DNA from: Escherichia coli
Lineage (GTDB): Bacteria > Pseudomonadota > Gammaproteobacteria > Enterobacterales > Enterobacteriaceae
NCBI RefSeq assembly: GCF_003334385.1
Contig: NZ_QOWN01000036.1
Length of the DNA: 43,104 nucleotides
Direction: 5' to 3' (one strand)
This document shows, one piece after another, positions 1 through 41,917 of the stretch. Position numbers and translations under genes: made by a program. The stretch's first letter is position 1; each line of letters opens with the position of its first letter. Below the pieces are notes generated by a model, which made no database searches, was not told the origin of the DNA, and saw only the letters and a list, made by a program, of their open reading frames with translations.

Positions 1-71
1 GGTGATGACGGGATCGAACCGCCGACCCCCTCCTTGTAAGGGAGGTGCTCTCCCAGCTGAGCTAATCACCC
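1..71 (-). tRNA. valT: tRNA-Val (anticodon UAC), 3' end truncated by window edge
   Basis: Reverse complement of 1-71 gives GGGTGATTAGCTCAGCTGGGAGAGCACCTCCCTTACAAGGAGGGGGTCGGCGGTTCGATCCCGTCATCACC, a cloverleaf with anticodon loop CTTACAA; the last discriminator/CCA bases lie outside the window. Confidence 0.9.
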
Positions 72-107
72 GATACTACGCTGGATACTACAACTAACTA
101 TGTTAGT

Positions 108-124
108 GGTGGGTCGTGCAGGAT
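108..124 (-). repeat. 17-bp copy of the 3' end of tRNA-Lys (tggtgggtcgtgcagga) in the lysT-valT spacer
   Basis: Exact match of 108-124 to 207-223 (the 3' end of the lysT gene), not followed by the rest of a tRNA. Confidence 0.6.
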
Positions 125-206
125 GACTCGACTTCGTCTCGCCCTTCGGGCCGTTGCTCATGCAACGTTATCCTTCACGTTTTACTACCGCTTCCACCTT
201 AGCGAT

Positions 207-282
207 TGGTGGGTCGTGCAGGATTCGAACCTGCGACCAATTGATTAAAAGTCAACTGCTCTACCAACTGAGCTAACGACCC
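207..282 (-). tRNA. lysT: tRNA-Lys (anticodon UUU)
   Basis: Reverse complement is GGGTCGTTAGCTCAGTTGGTAGAGCAGTTGACTTTTAATCAATTGGTCGCAGGTTCGAATCCTGCACGACCCACCA, 76 nt, anticodon loop CTTTTAA, CCA encoded. Confidence 0.93.
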
Positions 283-446: not shown

Positions 447-1238
447 TTACATCGCGTTCAGACGTTTTTGTGCCTGTTTAGCGCCATCAGTACCAGGGTA
501 TTTACTGATAACCTGCTGGTATACGGCTTTCGCTTTTGCGGTGTCACCTTTGTCCTGCATGATGACGCCGACTTTAAACATCGCATCTGCAGCCTTTGGT
601 GACTTCGGATAGTTTTTCACTACCGAAGCAAAATAGTACGCCGCATCATCTTTTTTACCCTTGTTGTAGTTTAACTGACCCAGCCAATAATTGGCGTTTG
701 GCAGGTAAGTTGAATCAGGGTAATTTTTGATGAAATTCTGAAATGCCACCATTGCGTCATCCTGGCGGGATTTATCCTGCACCAGCGCAATAGCTGCATT
801 GTAATCCGTGTTTGCATTACCGCTTTTCACCGGCGCGCCAGCATTCGCAGTACCAGCATCAGCTGTCGGCGTCGTTGATGCCGCCGCACCGCTTTGATCG
901 CCGCTGGTTGATTGCGCCGCTGCACCACCGCTGCTGAGGCTGTCGATCTGCAACAGGATCTGCTTTTGCCGCTCCACGACCTGATTCAGTTGATACTGAT
1001 TTTCCTGAATCTGACCACGCAGGGAATCAATATCGGATTGATTATCAGAAAGTTGTTGCTGGAGTTGGGTTAAAAGCTGGCTGTGAGCATTAGAAATACG
1101 CTCAAGTTGAGTGACGCGGTCTTCGACCGAGCCTGAGCCGACACTACTGATTGGTGCCTGAGCAAAAGCGGCCCAGGGGGCCGCTATACCAACCAGTAAC
1201 GACAGACTCAATAGTTGATGTCTGAAGTTACTGCTCAT
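447..1238 (-). CDS. cpoB: Cell-division coordinator CpoB (YbgF), periplasmic TPR protein
   Basis: 263-aa ORF with signal peptide (MSSNFRHQLLSLSLLVGIAAPWAAFA), coiled-coil Q-rich region and C-terminal TPR-like repeats; last gene of the tol-pal cluster. Confidence 0.95.
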   Translation of the reverse strand: MSSNFRHQLLSLSLLVGIAAPWAAFAQAPISSVGSGSVEDRVTQLERISNAHSQLLTQLQQQLSDNQSDIDSLRGQIQENQYQLNQVVERQKQILLQIDSLSSGGAAAQSTSGDQSGAAASTTPTADAGTANAGAPVKSGNANTDYNAAIALVQDKSRQDDAMVAFQNFIKNYPDSTYLPNANYWLGQLNYNKGKKDDAAYYFASVVKNYPKSPKAADAMFKVGVIMQDKGDTAKAKAVYQQVISKYPGTDGAKQAQKRLNAM

Positions 1239-1247
1239 GCAATTCTC

Positions 1248-1793
<546 letters not shown>

Positions 1794-7809: not shown

Positions 7810-9378
7810 TTAGCGTGCCGGCTGAGTAGTCGTGGAAGACTGCTCAAAGTGATAGCGACCGGTTTTCAGGCTGCTTGGGCCGAGGCGTGCAAACTTGAAC
7901 ATTAAGAACAATTCTGCCACCAGGAACAGGGTATACAGGCCGCAAATCAGCACCATTGAGAAGATGAGATCGCCTGCGGTCAGTGACGAGTTCGCCACAG
8001 CTGTCGGCAGCACTTCACCGATAGCCCACGGTTGGCGGCCATATTCAGCCACGAACCAGCCCGCTTCTACAGCAATCCACGGCAGCGGAATACCGTACAG
8101 CGCGGCGCGCAGAAGCCATTTTTTCTCGCCAATGCGGTTGCGGATGACACTCCAGAAAGAGAGCGCGATGATTGCCAGAAGCAGGAAGCCACACGCCACC
8201 ATGATACGGAACGCAAAGTACAGCGGCGCTACACGCGGGATGGAGTCTTTGGTTGCCTGTTGAATCTGCGCTTCAGTCGCATCAGCCACGTTTGGCGTAT
8301 AGCGTTTCAGCAGCAGACCGTAACCGAGGTCTTTCTTCATGCTATTGAACTGGTCACGAACCGCCTGGTCGGTAGAACCAGAACGCAGTTGTTCGAGCAG
8401 AGAGTACGCCTTCATCCCGTTACGAATGCGTTCTTCATGCTGCACCATCAGCTCTTTCAGGCCGATAACCGGGGTATCCACGGAACGCGTTGCAATGATG
8501 CCCAGTGCGTAAGGGATCTGAATCGCAAATTTGTTCGTCTCCTCTTCCTGATCAGGAATGCCGAACAGAGTAAAGGCAGCAGGCGCAGGTTGCGTTTCCC
8601 ACTCGGCTTCAATAGCAGCCAGTTTGGTTTTCTGCACGTCGCCCATTTCGTAGCCGGATTCATCACCCAGAACAATAACAGACAGAACAGCAGCCATACC
8701 GAAGCTGGCAGCGATAGCAAAGGAGCGTTTAGCGAAGGCGAAGTCACGACCTTTCAGCATATACCATGCGCTGATACCGAGGATGAACATCGCGCCAGTC
8801 ACATAACCAGACGCTACAGTGTGAACGAATTTCACCTGAGCAACCGGGTTAAGCACCAGCTCGGAGAAGCTCACCATCTCCATACGCATAGTTTCAAAGT
8901 TGAAATCGGACGCGATTGGGTTTTGCATCCAGCCGTTCGCAACCAGAATCCACAGTGCGGACAGGTTTGAACCGAGCGCCACCAGCCAGGTGACACACAT
9001 ATGCTGAACTTTACCCAGACGATCCCAACCGAAGAAGAACAGACCTACAAAGGTGGATTCGAGGAAGAAGGCCATCAGACCTTCGATTGCCAGCGGCGCA
9101 CCGAAGATATCCCCTACATAGTGGGAATAGTAAGACCAGTTAGTCCCGAACTGGAACTCCATGGTCAGACCGGTAGCCACACCCAGAGCGAAGTTGATAC
9201 CAAACAACTTGCCCCAGAACTTGGTCATATCTTTATAAATCTGTTTGCCGGAGAGGACGTAGACCGTTTCCATAATGGCCAGCAGGAACGCCATACCGAG
9301 CGTCAGTGGCACAAAAAGGAAGTGGTACATCGCGGTCAAGGCAAACTGTAAGCGCGACAGTTCGACTATATCTAACAT
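7810..9378 (-). CDS. cydA: Cytochrome bd-I ubiquinol oxidase subunit I
   Basis: 522 aa from [12 protein letters not shown]... (the track ORF has one extra leading Met codon); recognised as CydA. Confidence 0.95.
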
Positions 9379-9712
9379 CATGACTCCTTGCTCATCGCAT
9401 GAAGACTCCGAGAGTGAACCCCGTTAGAAAGGGTCACACGCATGCCCCAATAGAAATTTGTTTGAACACTTTCATCATACCATGTGAATGCACACAAAAA
9501 CGGCGTAAAGAAAGGTTGCAAACATGTTAATAAAAACTCAAATTGATCCCACGTATATATTACGCCGCAAAATCCTTACAATAAACAGGTTTTTGTTGAA
9601 GCAAATTTGCATTTTTCGACGGTGATCAATTTATAGCTAAATTACCGCCTTTCAGCCAATTTGATCGAGAACAATTTATCTCTTTTTGATGCCCATTTCC
9701 AAGACTTATACA

Positions 9713-9726
9713 TTGATAAATATCAA
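9713..9726. promoter_or_regulatory. Perfect FNR/CRP-family box TTGAT-AAAT-ATCAA in the cydA upstream region
   Basis: Exact palindromic match to TTGAT-N4-ATCAA about 340 bp upstream of the cydA ATG, in an AT-rich region; cydAB is known to be FNR/ArcA controlled, but the specific site is not verified here. Confidence 0.45.
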
Positions 9727-10015
9727 TTCCTACAAATTATGTTAATCATGTTTCAATAAGGTAACTTTAGTGACATTTATGTTTAAAATGTGTGAGTTAT
9801 AAGGCTGAAATTAGTTTCGGTTGGCAATTAAAGATAAAAAGAGACGAAGCAAAAACAGCACGGTTGACCTTAATTCTTTTTTTGGTCACTGGCTAATACG
9901 ACGCAGAGTTTCAGGATTACTAATAAAGGCATAAATCCACCCCGCCAATATTAACATTTAGTTAACTTATAATTATATTATAATTAACTCACCCAGGGTT
10001 ATTATTTTGTTAAAA

Positions 10016-10040
10016 ATAAAGCCACATATACGTGGCTTGA
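10016..10040 (-). terminator. Candidate intrinsic terminator downstream of mngB
   Basis: aagccac-atatac-gtggctt hairpin, followed on the minus strand by a U-rich tract (tattttt). Confidence 0.45.
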
Positions 10041-10062
10041 GAGTGAAGATAAACGCAAAATT

Positions 10063-10170
10063 ACCTGATGCGCTACGCTTGCCAGTGTCTACATCATCTC
10101 TGCAATATATTGAATTTGCCTGCTTTTGTAGACCGAATAAAGCGTTCATGCCGTATCCGGCATGAACAAA
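10063..10170. repeat. REP/BIME-type palindromic element with internal IHF-like motif (RIP-like)
   Basis: cctgatgcgctacgc and tgtagaccgaataaagcgttcatgccgtatccggcatgaac palindromic units flanking ctgcaatatattgaatttgc; the same internal motif recurs at 39820-39850. Confidence 0.6.
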
Positions 10171-10224
10171 GCGCCCTTTGTCAACAATCTGGCCGCGCAT
10201 ATGTGGCTTCGGTTTGATTGCTAT

Positions 10225-12858
10225 TCAGGCAAGCCGGTAACTGAACGTCCGTGACTGGCCGGGTAAAAAAGGCCCCGATAGATTTGAACCTTGATTTTCC
10301 TCGGTGGTAATGTGTTCATCCATCATCGTTTCTGAGCAAGAAATCACCTCGCGACTGAAAGCAACAGTCGCATCACAGGTTGCTGATTCAGCCGGATTAA
10401 ACAGCCGTAAAATCACTTCTTGTCGGTCTTCAGCTTTCTTAAGTGCGCTTATCAGGCATCCCACTGGGGGCATTTTCAACAAACTATAACTTTCCGGCAC
10501 GTTGAATCCGGCTTTGTTGAGCTTCATCACATCCCATGGGATTTTGTTGTAACACTGTACTGGAGTCAGCCATGCTCGCGCCTGCTGAGCTACACCAGCG
10601 GCGGTTGGCGTACCGGTATAACTCAATAAACTTAGGCGACAAGAAAGCAGACCACGTAGTTGTGAGTCCGGGACTGGCATTTTAATTCCCGAAGGCCGCC
10701 CAGGCCTTAAAAGCAGATCTTCTTTGCCCAGTAAGCCCACGCCACGCAGCAACGTAATGGCAAAGGTTTTCTTCTCTTCACCGATGACTTCAAATTCACG
10801 TAACCCTTCGCTAAAGACAGCCATGCCGTTACGCCCTTCCTGTAAGGCAACATAGTTGAGCATATTCCATACCGGAACCGGCGCTTCTTTCCAGCCTTCT
10901 TGCTGCCAGTTGTTCATTGCACTGTCGTTCACGGGGCGCGTTAGCGAACCAAACTGCGTATCTGCCAGAACACTGTCGGTGTTAAAAGGTGTAGGGACCA
11001 GGACACGAAGGCGATGATCGTCAGCCTGGTTATCAAGATTGATATCCACATCAATACGCCTGCTGTTATGACTAAGAGTGACAACCAACACCACCCCTAC
11101 TCTGCCAGTGGATTGCCGGGCGCTGCGTTCTGACAAATTGAGCGGCACTGCCATGTCATAGCGGATAACAGCCCTGCTCTGCCAGGCTTCATGAATAATA
11201 TCGCATTGCGGTTTCGCGTTCGCTGCGGTAATTACCCACTCTTCTTTTGCGGGTGAATAGTCATATTCATCACCATCATCAGAGCTTTCTTCAATTTGCA
11301 ATACCCGGTCATAGCGCACACCGCTGTCTTTATCTACCAGTTGCAGAGAACCATCCTCATTGAGCGCAATTTGCCAGAAAGCATTTTCCAGTATCCCTTC
11401 AGCGTCACTTTTTGCCGCAATTACGTTGCCAGGCTGATTCGCTTCGATATAAAGCGTGCGATAGCCCATAGAAGGGACAATCTGGTTGATCTGTATATCA
11501 AACTCCATAAAGGGATCGTAATTACCGTAATGAACTATTTGCCGATCGATTAGGCCTGGATCGATCTCACGGGCATGGCGAATAAAATACGGTACAGGCT
11601 GACCGCGATCGTCCCGCAAATTAAACTGGCTGGCGCGCAGCCGCACAGTGGTGTTGATAACTTCTTCACGCGGCCAGGGCATCAGGTTAAACAGGACGAG
11701 TTTGTCGGCGTCGCTCTGCGGCATGTTGTCGGCAATTTTGCGCATGTAGAAACGAATCAGATTATCCGCCATGTCTTCAGCCAGTTCGAAGCGGGCGACG
11801 ATTTCGCGATGAACTTTGTCACTACAGCAGCAGCCGATACTGTCGTGGGCATGATTTTTTAAGATCTCTTTCCACATTTTCTCCAGCAAGCCGTGGTGGT
11901 ATTCAAAACCCAACGTCCAGGCCAGTGTTGCCAGCGGTTCCAGCAGATTAACAATCTTATTTTCAATACGCGCGTGGGCAATTTTGATATCCATACGCGT
12001 AGAACCGATGGTGCGATGCACGCGCATATATTTGCCATCAATAAATTCCCCTTTCAGGGTTGCCAGATTATCTCGCTGCGCTTCGATCTTCTCAAATACC
12101 TCTTCAAAGCGGCTCATCACAAACTTACGTTGAGGGTAGATCTCACGTAGCTTATCCATCACTTCGAAGATATTTTGCTGCAATGGCATCTGGTCATGCC
12201 CATTCGGCAGCAAAATCTCTTTGGTTACAGACGCTTTTTCCAGCACGTCAAAATAACTGTCGAGGCGTTTACGTAATCCGTTTTCGTCGGCAGGTAAGTA
12301 CTTACCGATGGCGTAGCCCAGCGGCAGCACCTGCGCCGTCACTTCGCTACCGTCACTGCTTTGCCACAAAAACTCGGTTTTATCAGTACCGTGGCGCTCC
12401 GAACATCCGCGCCAGAACATGGTGCGGGTAATGCCAAATCCATTGTAGATATGCGGCAGTTGCCCGGACATGCCAAAGGAATCTGGTAAATAACCTATTT
12501 TCATCGGCTCGCCAAACGCGAGGCAGTCACGCATTCCGTACATCAGATTACGGACGATGGATTCCGCAGAAACAATCGTGGTATCGGTCTGGGTATACCA
12601 GGGGCCGATAATCAACTTGCCGGCTTCTACCTGTTTCTTCACACGGTCTTTGTTTTCCGGTTTCACCGCGAAATAATCTTCGAGGATCGCCGTTTGCCCG
12701 TCGAGTACGTAATATTTGTATTCGTTGTCCTGTTCCAGTCGGCACAGGATCTCTTCCATATTATTGACCAGCAGAATACGTGACTCTTCGGTGGTGAAAT
12801 ACCACTCTCGATCCCAGTGCATATGCGGGGTGATGTGAACGCGAGATACTGCTTTCAT
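10225..12858 (-). CDS. mngB: Alpha-mannosidase / mannosyl-D-glycerate hydrolase (GH38)
   Basis: 877-aa ORF with GH38 N-terminal motifs (HMHWDREW); downstream of mngA. Confidence 0.93.
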
Positions 12859-17905: not shown

Positions 17906-18076
17906 CCGTAGGCCTGATAAGACACGTTAAACGTCACATCAGGCATCGCTTGTCGGATGCGGCGCTAGCGCCTTATCCGACCTACATTGGTGGTCCCGTA
18001 GGCCTGATAAGACGCGTCAGCGTCGCATCAGGCTTCAATTGCCGGAGAAGGCGATAATGCCTTATCCGGTCTACAG
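17906..18076. repeat. REP/BIME cluster in the sucB-sucC spacer
   Basis: Multiple gtaggcctgataagacgcg... and cggatgcggcg... / ccttatccg palindromic units within a 274-bp intergenic gap. Confidence 0.6.
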
Positions 18077-22130: not shown

Positions 22131-22310
22131 CGTGATCCCTTAAGCATCTTTTTTATGCTTACTTCGCCGTGGATACTACCACGCACAGTGATGTGCGTGC
22201 CGGGGTTCACTTGCGAGCTCTTGTCTACGTAGTGGCTCGCGAAGGAACCTTTAAAAACTGTCTTAGTGTCAGGGGCAGTTTTTAAAGATTTCCTGCATTT
22301 CTTTGTTACG

Positions 22311-22428
22311 CCTGATGCGCTGCGCTTATCAGGCCTACGGGTAATGACTTGTAGGCCGGATAAGGCGTTCACGCCGCATCCGGCACTGGTTGCCTGATGC
22401 GACGCTTGCGCGTCTTATCAGGCCTACG
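22311..22428. repeat. REP/BIME cluster in the sdhB-sucA spacer
   Basis: cctgatgcgctgcgcttatcaggcctacg..., ggccggataaggcgttcacgccgcatccggc... and gcctgatgcgacgcttgcgcgtcttatcaggcctacgg palindromic units. Confidence 0.6.
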
Positions 22429-38095: not shown

Positions 38096-39760
<1,665 letters not shown>

Positions 39761-39775
39761 TAGGCCAGCACCGAT

Positions 39776-39905
39776 GCCTGATGCGACGCTTGACGCGTCT
39801 TATCAGGCCTACGTATTTCCTGCAATTTATTGAATTTGCACAAATTTGTAGGCTGGATAAGGCGTTCACGCCGCATCCGGCATCTGGGCTCGATTGCCTG
39901 ACGCG
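39776..39905. repeat. REP/BIME (RIP-like) element in the convergent dtpD-phr spacer
   Basis: gcctgatgcgacgcttgacgcgtcttatcaggcctac and tgtaggctggataaggcgttcacgccgcatccggcat palindromes flanking ctgcaatttattgaatttgc. Confidence 0.6.
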
Positions 39906-39909
39906 TCTG

Positions 39910-41328
39910 TTATTTCCCCTTCCGCGCCGCCTCATACGCTGCCAACGTTTGTACTCTCGCTTCTTTGTGCTCGACTATCGGTTGCGGATAATCCAGCGTC
40001 ACACCTGCTTTCTGCGCCCACTTCCACGGCTCATGCACCACTTTCCCTGGCACATCGCGCAGTTCCGGTAGCCACTGGCGGATAAACTCGCCCTCATGAT
40101 CAAATTTCTCGCCCTGGGTTGTCGGGTTGAAAATACGAAAATACGGCGCTGCATCGGTTCCGGTTGAAGCGGCCCACTGCCAGCCACCGTTATTGGCTGC
40201 CAAATCACCATCAATCAGCTGCGACATGAAATATCGCTCGCCTTCGCGCCAGTCGATCAATAAATCTTTCACCAGAAAACTGGCTGTAATCATCCGTAGC
40301 CTGTTATGCATCCAGCCAGTGCTGTTAAGCTGACGCATAGCGGCATCAACAATCGGGTATCCCGTTTTGCCTTCCTGCCAGGCCTGTAAATGTGCGGGAT
40401 TGCTCTGCCACTGTACACGATCCGTCCAGGCAATAAATGGACGATGTTTACACAACGAGGGGTGATACGTTATCAGGTGACGGTAAAACTCGCGCCAGAT
40501 CAGCTCATTAAGCCAGACACTACCGGCCCCACCGTCCAGCGCCTGCGGCTGTTCAGCCAACAAGCGATGCAAGCACTGGCGAGGCGATAACCCGCCCGTT
40601 GCCAGGCTGGCCGACAAACGGCTGGTGCCTTCCACTGCCGGAAAATCTCGTTGTTGCTCATATTCTCCGGCACCGTTCTGGCAAAACTGGCGTAATTGCG
40701 CAATCGCCGCTTTTTCTTCCACCGGAAAATGCGCAGTATCGAAAGACTGACGAGGATAATTCAGCGTAATGGATGGCGAGGGCTCTATCGATCCGCTACT
40801 ACGAACTTTTGGCGCAGCGACGCACTCCGGCATCCCTTCCCGCAGCCGTTTCAGCCAGGCATTCTTAAAAGGCGTAAAGACTTTGTACATCTCGTGATTA
40901 CCGGTCATCACCGCGCCAGGCGGCAGGATCACGCTGTCATCAAATCCTTCACACACCACGTTACGCAGCGCTCTTTCAACTTCCACATCCCGCGCCCGCT
41001 CATTCACTTCATACTGATAGTTATAAAACAGGTGGGTAACGCTGTTTTCCGCGCACACCTGTTTAACTATTTCGACACTGGCGACAAAGTCATCCACTTC
41101 ACGGAACAATAAAGGAATACCTTTTTCCGCAAGCGCTATTTGTAGCCCATTCAGTTGAGCATTGATAAGTTCAGCCTGACGCGGCGACATGTTATGCGTC
41201 GCCCACTGGCGTGGTGTAGCGATATACAACGCCAGCACGCGTGCAGACGAATTGCGGCAGGCGGCAGCCAGTGCGAGATTATCGTGCAGACGTAAATCCT
41301 GGCGAAACCAGACCAGATGGGTAGTCAT
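39910..41328 (-). CDS. phr: Deoxyribodipyrimidine photolyase (CPD photolyase)
   Basis: 472-aa ORF (MTTHLVWFRQDLRLHDNLALAAA...) with photolyase/cryptochrome FAD-binding domain. Confidence 0.95.
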   Translation of the reverse strand: MTTHLVWFRQDLRLHDNLALAAACRNSSARVLALYIATPRQWATHNMSPRQAELINAQLNGLQIALAEKGIPLLFREVDDFVASVEIVKQVCAENSVTHLFYNYQYEVNERARDVEVERALRNVVCEGFDDSVILPPGAVMTGNHEMYKVFTPFKNAWLKRLREGMPECVAAPKVRSSGSIEPSPSITLNYPRQSFDTAHFPVEEKAAIAQLRQFCQNGAGEYEQQRDFPAVEGTSRLSASLATGGLSPRQCLHRLLAEQPQALDGGAGSVWLNELIWREFYRHLITYHPSLCKHRPFIAWTDRVQWQSNPAHLQAWQEGKTGYPIVDAAMRQLNSTGWMHNRLRMITASFLVKDLLIDWREGERYFMSQLIDGDLAANNGGWQWAASTGTDAAPYFRIFNPTTQGEKFDHEGEFIRQWLPELRDVPGKVVHEPWKWAQKAGVTLDYPQPIVEHKEARVQTLAAYEAARKGK

Positions 41329-41834
41329 AAAACTCCTGAATGGCGCAAGTTAATCACACGCGGCCAAAGTTCGAAATAACGCTGCCCTGAAAGCCAGGCG
41401 TCAGGATAAAGCGCCATATAGTGTTTGATACGCATCAGCGGCGCAAGAAGTGGTTGCTCGCCACGGCGATAACTGTCGATAAGCGCAGCCAGCTGCTGGC
41501 GTTCTGTGGAATCAATATGCGGGCGAAAATAACCCTGAACGTGCATCAAAACATTGGTGTGATCGCGCGGGTTGGCGGGGTGAGAAAGCAAAACAACTAC
41601 GCGTTGGCGGTACTGGTTGTAATAGTCATCCAGATTTTGCCACTGGTGAATATCAGCCACGAACGGGCCAAGTTTGCGGTACTCCGGCTGAGAATGCGCC
41701 AGAAAGACGAGTTTATAGCGGCTGTGATAATCGAGAAGCGCCCCGCGCGTTAAGCCATGTTCTTTCAGTCGATGTAACTCATGAAGGGCAAAGATACGGA
41801 TTAGGGTGCTGTCATCAAATCGTTGTAGATTCAT
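41325..41834 (-). CDS. ybgA: DUF1722-family protein YbgA, co-transcribed with phr
   Basis: 169-aa ORF whose stop overlaps the phr start (ATGA). Confidence 0.9.
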   Translation of the reverse strand: MNLQRFDDSTLIRIFALHELHRLKEHGLTRGALLDYHSRYKLVFLAHSQPEYRKLGPFVADIHQWQNLDDYYNQYRQRVVVLLSHPANPRDHTNVLMHVQGYFRPHIDSTERQQLAALIDSYRRGEQPLLAPLMRIKHYMALYPDAWLSGQRYFELWPRVINLRHSGVL

Positions 41835-41917
41835 TACTGCTCCTGAGCGGTTTACAGGAGTAAGTGTAGACGTTGAGAAATGATATTTGTGAAGTTAATC
41901 CTGTTGTAGCAGGACAA

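What the first reader, a model, noticed from the sequence alone, without database searches (positions are those of the whole stretch)
39761..39909. RIP-like element in the convergent dtpD-phr spacer shares a core with the one near mngB
Both 39776-39905 and 10063-10170 have REP palindromes flanking a near-identical core (ctgcaat(a/t)tattgaatttgc, one mismatch in 20 nt) that resembles an IHF-binding motif. Two dispersed copies in one 43-kb window suggest a defined repeat family rather than chance.
Basis: seen in the sequence. Interest (0 to 1): 0.25.

Follow-up and report, generated by a model that had tools for sequence, protein, structure and literature searches.

The report
Known IHF-site REP repeat (RIP/BIME-1)
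The spacer between dtpD and phr holds a copy of a long-known E. coli repeat, two palindromic REP units around a conserved site for the DNA-bending protein IHF, and a decayed sister copy lies after mngB; the finding is correct but ordinary.

Summary
The window is E. coli K-12 MG1655, reverse-complemented. The finding covers the whole 149-bp spacer between the convergent genes dtpD and phr.

The 20-nt core occurs exactly twice in the window, against 0.01 expected. At dtpD-phr it sits in a 35-nt linker between two intact, inward-facing REP hairpins. This is the RIP/RIB (BIME-1-type) architecture described in 1993.

Its REP stems have decayed. The dtpD-phr copy is an atypical variant: long Y REP, L linker, Z REP, a short linker and a truncated REP that carries the phr stop codon.

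The family is real. There are at least 40 linker copies per K-12 genome. Exact cores occur in multiple copies only in Escherichia and Pseudocitrobacter among about 100,000 species genomes, and copies lie mostly between convergent genes.

Both cores match the in-vivo IHF consensus perfectly. Family variation spares the consensus positions. IHF binding itself was not tested here.

The Rfam "sRNA" ES036 is this very linker and behaves as a repeat model. The element is strain-variable.

Verdict: already known, low interest.

The parts
39776..39812 (+). Y-type REP, long form (GCCTGATGCGACGCTTGACGCGTCTTATCAGGCCTAC). Its CTAC foot faces the linker. The stem starts 15 nt after the dtpD stop codon (39758-39760).
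   Evidence: Hairpin of -21.3 kcal/mol, z -6.7. Sequence read. It differs from the short Y form carried by most family copies.
39813..39847 (.). L linker, 35 nt, holding the conserved core 39820-39839. The IHF consensus match is at 39823-39836.
   Evidence: Core unique to two sites in the window. Perfect match to YAWNNNNYTGAWWW. One mismatch to WATCAANNNNTTR on the - strand. The 35-nt linker length is shared by the family.
39848..39882 (+). Z-type REP (GTAGGCTGGATAAGGCGTTCACGCCGCATCCGGCA), inverted relative to the Y REP, with its GTAG foot facing the linker.
   Evidence: Hairpin of -18.7 kcal/mol, z -3.9. Matches the family consensus Z unit apart from one substitution.
39883..39895 (.). Short tail-to-tail linker (TCTGGGCTCGATT) between the Z REP and the truncated third REP. 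It resembles the Z-Y linker of BIME-2-type units.
   Evidence: Aligned by Infernal to the inter-hairpin linker of the naRNA4 (Y-l-Z2) model, below threshold at 39.7 bits.
39896..39913 (+). Truncated third REP (GCCTGACGCGTCTGTTAT), a Y unit with an internal deletion. Its TTA at 39910-39912 is the phr stop codon (TAA on the - strand).
   Evidence: Sequence read. In short-allele strains a single intact REP is found in this spacer and its CTGATAA supplies the phr stop. Treating the truncated unit as homologous to that REP is my reading. ORF ends.
39805..39847 (-). ES036 (Rfam RF02751), a 43-nt RNA-seq-defined 'sRNA'. It equals the L linker plus 8 nt of the Y REP foot, in the phr sense.
   Evidence: 75.1 bits, full length and identical to the model consensus. 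Defined at U00096.2 740211-740253(+) with no TSS evidence (PMC4676190). Coordinates map to this site through, plus a 777-nt offset between the two K-12 sequence versions. That offset is my own knowledge. It is supported by the exact coincidence with the Rfam hit.
10037..10062 (+). Left flank motif of the canonical family element (consensus TTGAGACTGATGACAAACGCAAAATT).
   Evidence: Matches the 94-copy consensus with 3 substitutions. The dtpD-phr copy lacks this motif.
10063..10092 (+). Short-form Y REP, decayed (ACCTGATGCGCTACGCTTGCCAGTGTCTAC; consensus GCCTGATGCGCTACGCTTATCAGGCCTAC).
   Evidence: Homology to the consensus. It no longer forms a hairpin (z +0.65).
10093..10127 (.). L linker, 35 nt, with core 10100-10119. 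The IHF consensus match is at 10103-10116.
   Evidence: The Rfam ES036 model matches only its 18-nt centre, at 21.9 bits, below threshold.
10128..10162 (+). Z REP, decayed by 5 substitutions. It refolds into a non-canonical hairpin, TTCATGCCG...CGGCATGAA.
   Evidence: The refolded hairpin is flagged as terminator-like on the - strand at 10168-10143.
10163..10191 (+). Right flank motif of the canonical element (consensus TGAACAAAGCGCACTTTGTCAGCAATCTG). It ends 33 nt from the mngB stop codon (10225-10227, - strand).
   Evidence: consensus; ORF.
10019..10038 (-). Intrinsic-terminator-like hairpin plus T tract, immediately after the element in the mngB transcription direction. It places the element inside the mngB 3' UTR.

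Best explanation
Both sequences are copies of the E. coli RIP/RIB repeat. RIP and RIB are the names used for a REP element (a BIME-1-type unit) whose linker holds an IHF site. The repeat consists of two REP palindromes of Y and Z type, in inverted orientation, around a conserved 35-nt L linker that carries an IHF binding site.

The mngB copy has the canonical structure: flank, short Y, L, Z, flank. Its palindromes have decayed by point mutation.

The dtpD-phr copy is an atypical BIME: long Y, L, Z, a short linker, then a truncated Y that carries the phr stop codon.

Likely mode of action, with the basis for each step:
1. On DNA, IHF binds the L core and bends it sharply between the two REPs. 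This was shown for the family in the 1993 papers, whose text I could not read. At these two loci it is inferred from sequence only.
2. On RNA, the element lies in the 3' UTRs of dtpD, phr and mngB. There the REP hairpins act as 3'-end protectors or attenuators, which is established for REPs in general and inferred here. In the dtpD-phr spacer they are the only structured element between the convergent genes.
3. The copies arose and vary through REP/BIME dynamics: action of the REP-associated transposase TnpA(REP), also called a RAYT, and recombination. This is inferred from strain polymorphism.

The 43-nt 'sRNA' ES036 is most likely a REP-bounded fragment of the phr 3' UTR, or the uniquely mappable stretch between two multi-copy REPs. 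It is probably not an independent gene.
For: Identity and anatomy:
- The window is identical to K-12 over the two 2.5-kb stretches compared. The spacer lies between convergent dtpD and phr.
- Two intact inverted REP hairpins flank a 35-nt linker.
- The whole element folds at -68 kcal/mol, z -6.1.

Family:
- A consensus built from 94 Escherichia and Pseudocitrobacter copies matches the mngB copy end to end. It matches the dtpD-phr copy in Y, L and Z only.
- The linker is found at a median of 34 places per genome across 5426 E. coli genomes.
- The exact 19-mer occurs in 92 stretches of Escherichia or Pseudocitrobacter DNA. Five more sit in probable contaminant contigs, and 17 lack REPs, against 17.3 chance matches expected.

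IHF site:
- Both cores match YAWnnnnYTGAWWW perfectly. That consensus comes from the top 500 in-vivo IHF peaks.
- Among 13 distinct variant cores, 32 substitutions fall almost entirely on the N and W positions or outside the consensus. Only one hits a specified position.
- The single A/T difference between the two window copies is at an N position.

Position:
- Of 59 family loci that could be scored, 33 are convergent, 23 tandem and 3 divergent.
- No other terminator-like site lies in the dtpD-phr spacer.
- The mngB copy lies between the stop codon and a terminator hairpin.

Literature:
- The BIME-1 L linker carries an IHF site.
- RIP is a REP element with an IHF site, and such loci are hypervariable.
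- The titles of Boccard & Prentki 1993 and Oppenheim 1993 are cited.

ES036:
- It has the same coordinates as the linker and no TSS.
- Its predicted structure is weak (-5.5 kcal/mol, z -0.31).
- The Rfam model fires at many unrelated RIP loci.
Against: IHF occupancy at these two loci was not shown by anything I could reach. No ChIP table with these genes was found. The original 1993 papers are not held.

The classical 13-nt consensus has one mismatch in both cores, and such matches are at background frequency.

The dtpD-phr copy lacks the flank motifs of the canonical element and has a third REP remnant. It is therefore not a textbook BIME-1.

The K-12 record available here carries no repeat_region features. 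I could not confirm the GenBank RIP labels that I recall for these loci.

Any host function of the element (topology, mRNA stability) remains inference for these copies.
Confidence: 0.92

Rival explanations
1. The conserved core is the gene for a genuine small RNA (ES036/CssrF). It would be transcribed from the phr-sense strand and act in trans, and the REPs would be incidental flanks.
For: RNA-seq detected a 43-nt transcript at exactly 39805-39847(-), reported as differentially expressed under stress (PMC4676190). Rfam holds a family for it, which hits at 75 bits.
Against: - No TSS evidence. The authors themselves suggest processing from a longer transcript.
- No promoter-like or terminator-like site in the spacer.
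- The predicted fold is no better than shuffles (z -0.31).
- The ends coincide with the boundaries of two multi-copy REPs. That is what a decay intermediate or a mappability gap would give (inference).
- The same 'family' scores above threshold at many unrelated loci, in both orientations relative to neighbouring genes, and in tandem arrays.
Confidence: 0.07
2. The elements are purely selfish, non-autonomous mobile DNA: REP doublets (REPIN-like) spread by the REP-associated transposase. They would have no host function, and the IHF site would serve only the element's own mobility or be a frozen accident.
For: - Presence or absence varies among strains at both loci.
- Different element types, and both orientations, occupy the same spacer in Pseudocitrobacter.
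- Tandem amplification occurs in one Escherichia lineage.
- The mngB copy is visibly decaying.
- TnpA(REP) cleaves and recombines BIMEs in vitro (PMC3333891).
Against: Variation among copies spares the IHF consensus positions. However, many of those variants are related tandem copies, so this is weak evidence for selection. The strong bias to convergent spacers fits either tolerated insertion or a 3'-end function. This rival concerns function only and does not contradict the identification.
Confidence: 0.3
3. The spacer is simply a bidirectional transcription terminator for dtpD and phr. Its resemblance to the mngB sequence would reflect only shared REP hairpins, not a specific family with a protein-binding linker.
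For: It is the only structured element between the convergent genes. REPs are known attenuators and stabilisers (literature summarised).
Against: The shared 20-mer lies in the AT-rich linker, not in the hairpins, and is conserved across dozens of copies per genome. No T tract follows the hairpins. About 60% of E. coli strains manage with a single REP in this spacer.
Confidence: 0.1
4. The shared core is a chance resemblance between two AT-rich intergenic stretches.
For: None beyond the AT-richness of the motif.
Against: 0.01 matches are expected in the window and 2 are found. The similarity extends over about 150 columns. There are dozens of copies per genome with the same flanks.
Confidence: 0.01

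Closest known systems
RIP (Oppenheim et al. 1993) / RIB (Boccard & Prentki 1993) elements, i.e. BIME-1 with the L motif
   Same: - Two inverted REPs (Y and Z) around a conserved linker of about 35 nt that carries an IHF consensus.
- Extragenic, at the 3' ends of transcription units.
- Dozens of copies per E. coli genome.
- The mngB copy also has the conserved outer flank motifs of the canonical element.
   Different: The dtpD-phr copy has a long-form Y REP, lacks both outer flank motifs, and continues into a short linker plus a truncated third REP. The mngB copy has lost the palindromic character of its REPs.
[quoted passage not shown]
   Same: The dtpD-phr element combines an L-type head-to-head linker with a short tail-to-tail linker and a third REP. 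That makes it a mixture of BIME-1 and BIME-2 parts.
   Different: Atypical BIMEs are described as occurring in multiple tandem copies. Here there is one unit and a remnant.
BIME-2 (Y-S-Z2 arrays; gyrase targets; naRNA4/REP325)
   Same: The same REP building blocks. Two such clusters lie elsewhere in the window, at sucB-sucC and sdhB-sucA.
   Different: BIME-2 has short linkers with no IHF core, occurs in tandem arrays, and binds gyrase rather than IHF.
REPINs (REP doublets forming hairpins, mobilised by RAYT transposases)
   Same: An inverted REP pair that folds into one long hairpin of -68 kcal/mol. Presence or absence varies between strains.
   Different: The REPIN concept does not include a protein-binding linker. 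No RAYT gene lies in this window, and mobility was not tested.
Neisseria Correia/NEMIS 155-bp elements with an internal IHF site
   Same: A small dispersed intergenic repeat with terminal inverted repeats and a central IHF site that binds in vitro (PMC2229807).
   Different: Unrelated sequence. The inverted repeats are of the transposon type with a target-site duplication. Different host.
Rfam RF02751 ES036 (CssrF) sRNA
   Same: Identical to window 39805-39847(-); this locus is where ES036 was defined.
   Different: In practice the Rfam family models the RIP L linker. It passes its threshold at many unrelated RIP loci in several species, so it is a repeat model rather than a single-gene RNA family.

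Membership tests
RIP/RIB (BIME-1 with L motif) | Two REP palindromic units in inverted, head-to-head orientation (feet CTAC ... GTAG facing the linker) | tested here: met
   dtpD-phr: both hairpins intact, -21.3 and -18.7 kcal/mol. mngB: both units present by homology to the 94-copy consensus, but the Y unit no longer folds and the Z unit folds differently. The mngB copy is therefore a decayed member.
RIP/RIB (BIME-1 with L motif) | Conserved long (L) linker of about 35 nt between the REPs, containing the family core | tested here: met
   Both linkers are exactly 35 nt, with the core in the same register. Most REP pairs found with a linker of about 33-36 nt in 754 kb of Escherichia and Pseudocitrobacter DNA carry this core or a close variant.
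RIP/RIB (BIME-1 with L motif) | Sequence match of the linker to the IHF binding consensus | tested here: met
   Perfect match to the in-vivo consensus YAWnnnnYTGAWWW. One mismatch to the classical WATCAANNNNTTR, which alone is at background frequency. Family variation spares the specified positions.
RIP/RIB (BIME-1 with L motif) | Specific binding of IHF protein to the linker | not testable with these tools
   No binding data for these two loci could be retrieved. Binding is reported for the family in papers I could see only as citations.
RIP/RIB (BIME-1 with L motif) | [quoted passage not shown] | tested here: met
   The dtpD-phr copy lies between two convergent stop codons. The mngB copy lies 33 nt after the stop codon and before a terminator hairpin. 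Family-wide: 33 convergent, 23 tandem, 3 divergent.
RIP/RIB (BIME-1 with L motif) | Dispersed multi-copy family in the genome | tested here: met
Between 5 and 24 exact-core stretches per Escherichia or Pseudocitrobacter genome.
Canonical BIME-1 (single unit with conserved outer flank motifs) | Conserved motifs outside both REPs (consensus TTGAGACTGATGACAAACGCAAAATT on the left, TGAACAAAGCGCACTTTGTCAGCAATC on the right) | tested here: not met
   Not met for the dtpD-phr copy, whose flanks are unrelated and which carries an extra REP remnant. Met for the mngB copy. Equating these flanks with the A and B motifs of Gilson et al. 1991 is from memory; that paper is not held.
Trans-acting sRNA gene (ES036) | Own promoter or TSS, and a defined terminator or a stable structure | tested here: not met
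   No TSS. No promoter-like or terminator-like site. The fold is indistinguishable from shuffles.

The most novel reading that the evidence does not exclude
The L linkers of RIP elements might be more than DNA sites for IHF. Dozens of loci could yield a class of roughly 40-nt, REP-bounded RNAs (ES036-like), made from 3' UTRs and with a function of their own. One possibility is nucleoid-associated RNAs that work with IHF or HU, by analogy with naRNA4 from BIME-2 arrays. My evidence does not exclude this. One such RNA was seen by RNA-seq, and the Rfam model finds the same sequence at many loci.
Probability: 0.04. Interest if true: 0.4.

Novelty: already known. Interest (0 to 1): 0.1.

Why it matters
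It matters little for discovery. RIP/RIB elements have been described since 1993, and from memory both loci are labelled as such in the K-12 GenBank record.

The practical value is in annotation hygiene.
- An Rfam "sRNA" family (RF02751) is in effect a model of this repeat's linker.
- PGAP calls a 75-aa "hypothetical protein" across the mngB copy in many genomes.
- Stray RIP-bearing contigs flag Escherichia contamination in unrelated assemblies.

The locus is also a clean example of BIME gain or loss. A REP supplies a gene's stop codon, and a short patch of high divergence lies next to it.

Tried and rejected
1. I looked for direct IHF occupancy data at these loci in ChIP, ChAP and GeF-seq papers. 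Prieto 2012 has no held supplements. The supplements of Myers 2013, Kasho 2021 and the 2026 YgfZ paper do not list dtpD, phr or the mngB-cydA element as IHF sites.

2. I tried to read the founding papers: Boccard & Prentki 1993 by PubMed id and PMC id, and Gilson 1991. None is held. Motif names (A, B, S, Z1 versus Z2) and published copy numbers therefore rest on memory and are marked as such.

3. I expected the RefSeq K-12 record to show the repeat_region (RIP) labels. The copy available lists only CDSs here.

4. My first reading of the pairwise alignment was that the mngB copy had a 7-nt deletion in its left REP. I rejected this after seeing the family. The mngB copy has the common short Y form, and it is the dtpD-phr copy that has the unusual long Y.

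5. A classical IHF consensus scan was not discriminating. I replaced it with the in-vivo consensus and the pattern of variation among copies.

6. An exact genome-wide count in K-12 was not possible. No whole genome can be fetched, and BLAST places are capped at 40 per record. Only a lower bound is given.

7. The first literature search for ES036 returned mostly grant numbers. A refined search found the source paper.

Full report
WHERE WE ARE. The two 2.5-kb stretches compared, 39335-41835 and 9336-11836, are 100% identical to E. coli K-12 MG1655, reverse-complemented (window position = 780,835 minus the NC_000913.3 position). The finding's coordinates 39761-39909 are exactly the 149-bp spacer between dtpD (+, 38279-39760) and phr (-, 39910-41328), which are convergent genes. 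The second site lies just 3' of mngB (-, 10225-12858), in the long mngB-cydA intergenic region.

THE OBSERVATION. CTGCAATWTATTGAATTTGC occurs at 10100-10119 and 39820-39839 and nowhere else in the window, even with three mismatches allowed. Shuffles give 0.01 expected matches. The two copies differ at one base. The similarity extends well beyond the core, at 78% column identity over about 150 columns.

ANATOMY OF THE dtpD-phr ELEMENT. Read on the + strand, the parts are as follows.
- A 37-nt Y-type REP at 39776-39812, ending in CTAC.
- A 35-nt AT-rich linker at 39813-39847, holding the core.
- A 35-nt Z-type REP at 39848-39882, starting with GTAG.
- A 13-nt linker at 39883-39895.
- A truncated REP at 39896-39913 (GCCTGACGCGTCTGTTAT), whose TTA is the phr stop codon.

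Both full REPs are strong hairpins, at -21.3 kcal/mol (z -6.7) and -18.7 kcal/mol (z -3.9). Because the two REPs are inverted and similar, the whole element can also fold into one long hairpin on either strand (-68.1 and -66.2 kcal/mol, z about -6). No other promoter-like or terminator-like site lies in the spacer. The Y stem begins 15 nt after the dtpD stop codon.

ANATOMY OF THE mngB ELEMENT. I took 94 copies with the exact core from Escherichia and Pseudocitrobacter genomes and built a consensus. The canonical element is about 155 bp long. It consists of:
- a left flank, TTGAGACTGATGACAAACGCAAAATT;
- a short Y REP, GCCTGATGCGCTACGCTTATCAGGCCTAC;
- a 35-nt L linker;
- a Z REP, GTAGGCCGGATAAGGCGTTCACGCCGCATCCGGCA;
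- a right flank, TGAACAAAGCGCACTTTGTCAGCAATC.

The mngB copy matches this consensus from end to end (window 10037-10191), with about 14 substitutions at conserved positions. Its REPs have decayed. The Y unit no longer folds (z +0.65), and the Z unit refolds into a different hairpin. The copy sits between the mngB stop codon and a terminator-like hairpin with a T tract at 10038-10019 on the - strand, so it is part of the mngB 3' UTR.

The dtpD-phr copy matches the consensus only in Y, L and Z. Its Y is the long form, both outer flanks are unrelated, and it has the extra REP remnant. In the published classification, as summarised in PMC3333891, that makes it closer to an "atypical BIME" than to a textbook BIME-1.

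IS IT A FAMILY?
- A 53-nt consensus of the linker plus the REP feet finds a median of 34 places per genome in all 5426 complete E. coli genomes. The K-12-specific variant of the linker finds a median of 21.
- Across one genome for each of about 100,000 species, the exact 19-mer occurs in 114 stretches.
- Of these, 92 are in Escherichia (E. albertii 12, E. whittamii 24, two cryptic-clade genomes 11 each, two E. coli-named genomes 5 and 6) or in Pseudocitrobacter (8, 10 and 5).
- Five more have REP flanks but sit in tiny or mis-binned contigs of unrelated taxa.
- Seventeen have no REP flank, against 17.3 expected by chance.

No Salmonella, Citrobacter or Klebsiella representative has the exact core. 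That is an exact-match result, so it says nothing about diverged versions.

THE IHF QUESTION. On the - strand both cores read ATTCAAnnnnTTG, which is one mismatch from the classical WATCAANNNNTTR. Matches of that quality are near background in the window (48 found, 35.6 +/- 6.9 expected), so that test alone proves nothing.

Two other lines are stronger.
- The consensus derived from the top 500 in-vivo IHF peaks is YAWnnnnYTGAWWW (PMC13036160). Both cores match it perfectly. The window has 17 such matches against 5.9 expected.
- Among 13 distinct variant cores found next to REPs, there are 32 substitutions. They fall on the N positions (including the A/T site that distinguishes the two window copies), on the W position (always A to T or T to A), or outside the consensus. 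Only one hits a specified base, in a copy with four mismatches. Many of these variants are tandem relatives, so this is suggestive rather than a statistical proof.

Actual IHF binding was not testable here, and I found no occupancy table covering these loci. It rests on the literature for the family. [quoted passage not shown] POSITION IN THE GENOME. Of 59 family loci where both neighbouring long ORFs could be scored, 33 are convergent, 23 tandem and 3 divergent. [quoted passage not shown] The dtpD-phr site is thus the typical kind of site for the family. Pseudocitrobacter species also carry an element in their own dtpD-phr spacer. There it is the canonical type, and in P. vendiensis it is inverted. 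These look like independent arrivals in a tolerant spacer.

STRAIN VARIATION.
- dtpD-phr. About 36-41% of complete E. coli genomes carry the long K-12-type spacer. The rest have a locus 108 bp shorter. In them a 41-bp spacer holds a single REP, and the REP's CTGATAA provides the phr stop codon. Divergence between the two haplotypes is local. It is 77% identity in the spacer and 90% in the last 200 bp or so of phr, against 97-100% on either side. A cryptic-clade Escherichia (E1V33) has the same atypical long structure, so the long form is not a recent K-12 peculiarity.
- mngB. The mngB segment and its element are absent from about 41% of genomes. There a TPR-protein gene lies between sucD and cydA, and no L core is present.

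Such hypervariability at REP and RIP loci is already described. TnpA(REP)-mediated cleavage and recombination of BIMEs offers a mechanism.

ES036. Rfam RF02751 "ES036 (CssrF) sRNA" hits 39805-39847 on the - strand at 75.1 bits, identical to the model consensus. ES036 was defined from small-RNA sequencing at U00096.2 740211-740253(+). With the 777-nt coordinate offset between the two K-12 sequence versions (my own knowledge), that is this same stretch. It has no TSS evidence, and its authors suggest processing from a longer transcript (PMC4676190).

The 43 nt are the L linker plus 8 nt of the Y REP foot, in the phr sense. The predicted fold is no better than shuffles. The Rfam model passes its gathering score at many unrelated RIP loci, including Pseudocitrobacter and tandem arrays. 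It misses the mngB copy only because that copy's flanks are mutated (21.9 bits).

My reading, which is inference, is that ES036 is a REP-bounded piece of the phr 3' UTR, or simply the uniquely mappable part between two multi-copy REPs. On that reading the Rfam family is a repeat model.

HOW IT MOST LIKELY WORKS.
- On DNA, IHF binds and bends the L core between the two REPs. This is shown for the family by others and inferred here.
- On RNA, the REP hairpins protect or attenuate the 3' ends of the dtpD, phr and mngB messages. This is established for REPs generally and inferred here.
- The copies come and go through REP/BIME dynamics, as inferred from the polymorphism.
- Whether the element benefits the host or is merely tolerated remains open. 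I rate the "purely selfish" view at about 0.3.

VERDICT. The element is a known kind of repeat at a locus where, from memory, the K-12 GenBank record already labels it. Novelty: already known. Interest: low.

Noticed in passing
window 39805-39847 (-); loci L014, L021, L028, L031, L033, L048, L066, L078, L088, L104, L106: Rfam RF02751 'ES036 sRNA' passes its gathering score at many unrelated RIP loci in several species and in tandem arrays. It is effectively a model of the RIP/BIME-1 L linker rather than a single-gene RNA family.
   Followed up: yes
window 39761-40160; L117, L119, L122: The dtpD-phr BIME is strain-variable. About 60% of complete E. coli genomes have a 41-bp spacer with one REP whose CTGATAA is the phr stop codon. 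The two haplotypes differ by a local patch of high divergence (77% identity in the spacer, 90% in the last ~200 bp of phr, 97-100% elsewhere). The phr C-terminus differs accordingly (AAYEAARKGK versus AAYEEARKGA, my hand translation of the alignment).
   Followed up: yes
L021, L028, L107 (Pseudocitrobacter dtpD-phr spacers): Pseudocitrobacter species carry a canonical BIME-1 with the same consensus as Escherichia in their own dtpD-phr spacer. In P. vendiensis it is in the opposite orientation. No Salmonella, Citrobacter or Klebsiella representative has the exact core. The sharing between Escherichia and Pseudocitrobacter is unexplained.
   Followed up: partly
L098, L100, L103, L104 (Escherichia sp. 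MOD1-EC7003): Tandem arrays of L-linker-containing BIME units with periods of about 107, 115 and 162 bp. BIME-1 is described as occurring in single copies.
   Followed up: no
window 9973-10200 (-): A 75-aa ORF runs across the mngB RIP element. It probably corresponds to the 'hypothetical protein' that PGAP annotates next to mngB in many E. coli genomes. If so, it is almost certainly a spurious call on repeat DNA.
   Followed up: partly
window ~9752-12858 and beyond; L120: The mngB segment, with its RIP element, is missing from about 41% of complete E. coli genomes. There a tetratricopeptide-repeat protein gene and an AT-rich region lie between sucD and cydA, with no L core.
   Followed up: partly
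window 10001-10009; L121: Some strains (LR-31, KL53, FLI21) have an IS1 inserted just beyond the RIP element. In LR-31, the only one examined, window 10001-10009 is duplicated on either side of the insertion, as a 9-bp target duplication would be. The site is in the terminator-like hairpin and AT-rich stretch, not in the REPs.
   Followed up: partly
L016, L018, L068, L093, L105: RIP elements with full REP flanks occur in very short or low-coverage contigs assigned to Desulfosporosinus, Methylobacterium and Alkalicoccobacillus, and in MAGs labelled Bacteroides and Collinsella. This is most likely Escherichia contamination or mis-binning.
   Followed up: partly
window 17908-18074 and 22309-22427: Two other REP clusters without an L core lie in the sucB-sucC and sdhB-sucA spacers. 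Both hit Rfam naRNA4 above threshold. The sucB-sucC BIME-2 is a published gyrase cleavage hot spot (PMC6379681).
   Followed up: partly
window 1209-1347 (-), 107-282 (-), 1-71 (-): Rfam also finds the CpoB/ybgF thermometer, an RtT element and tRNA genes at the start of the window. All are expected for this K-12 region.
   Followed up: no
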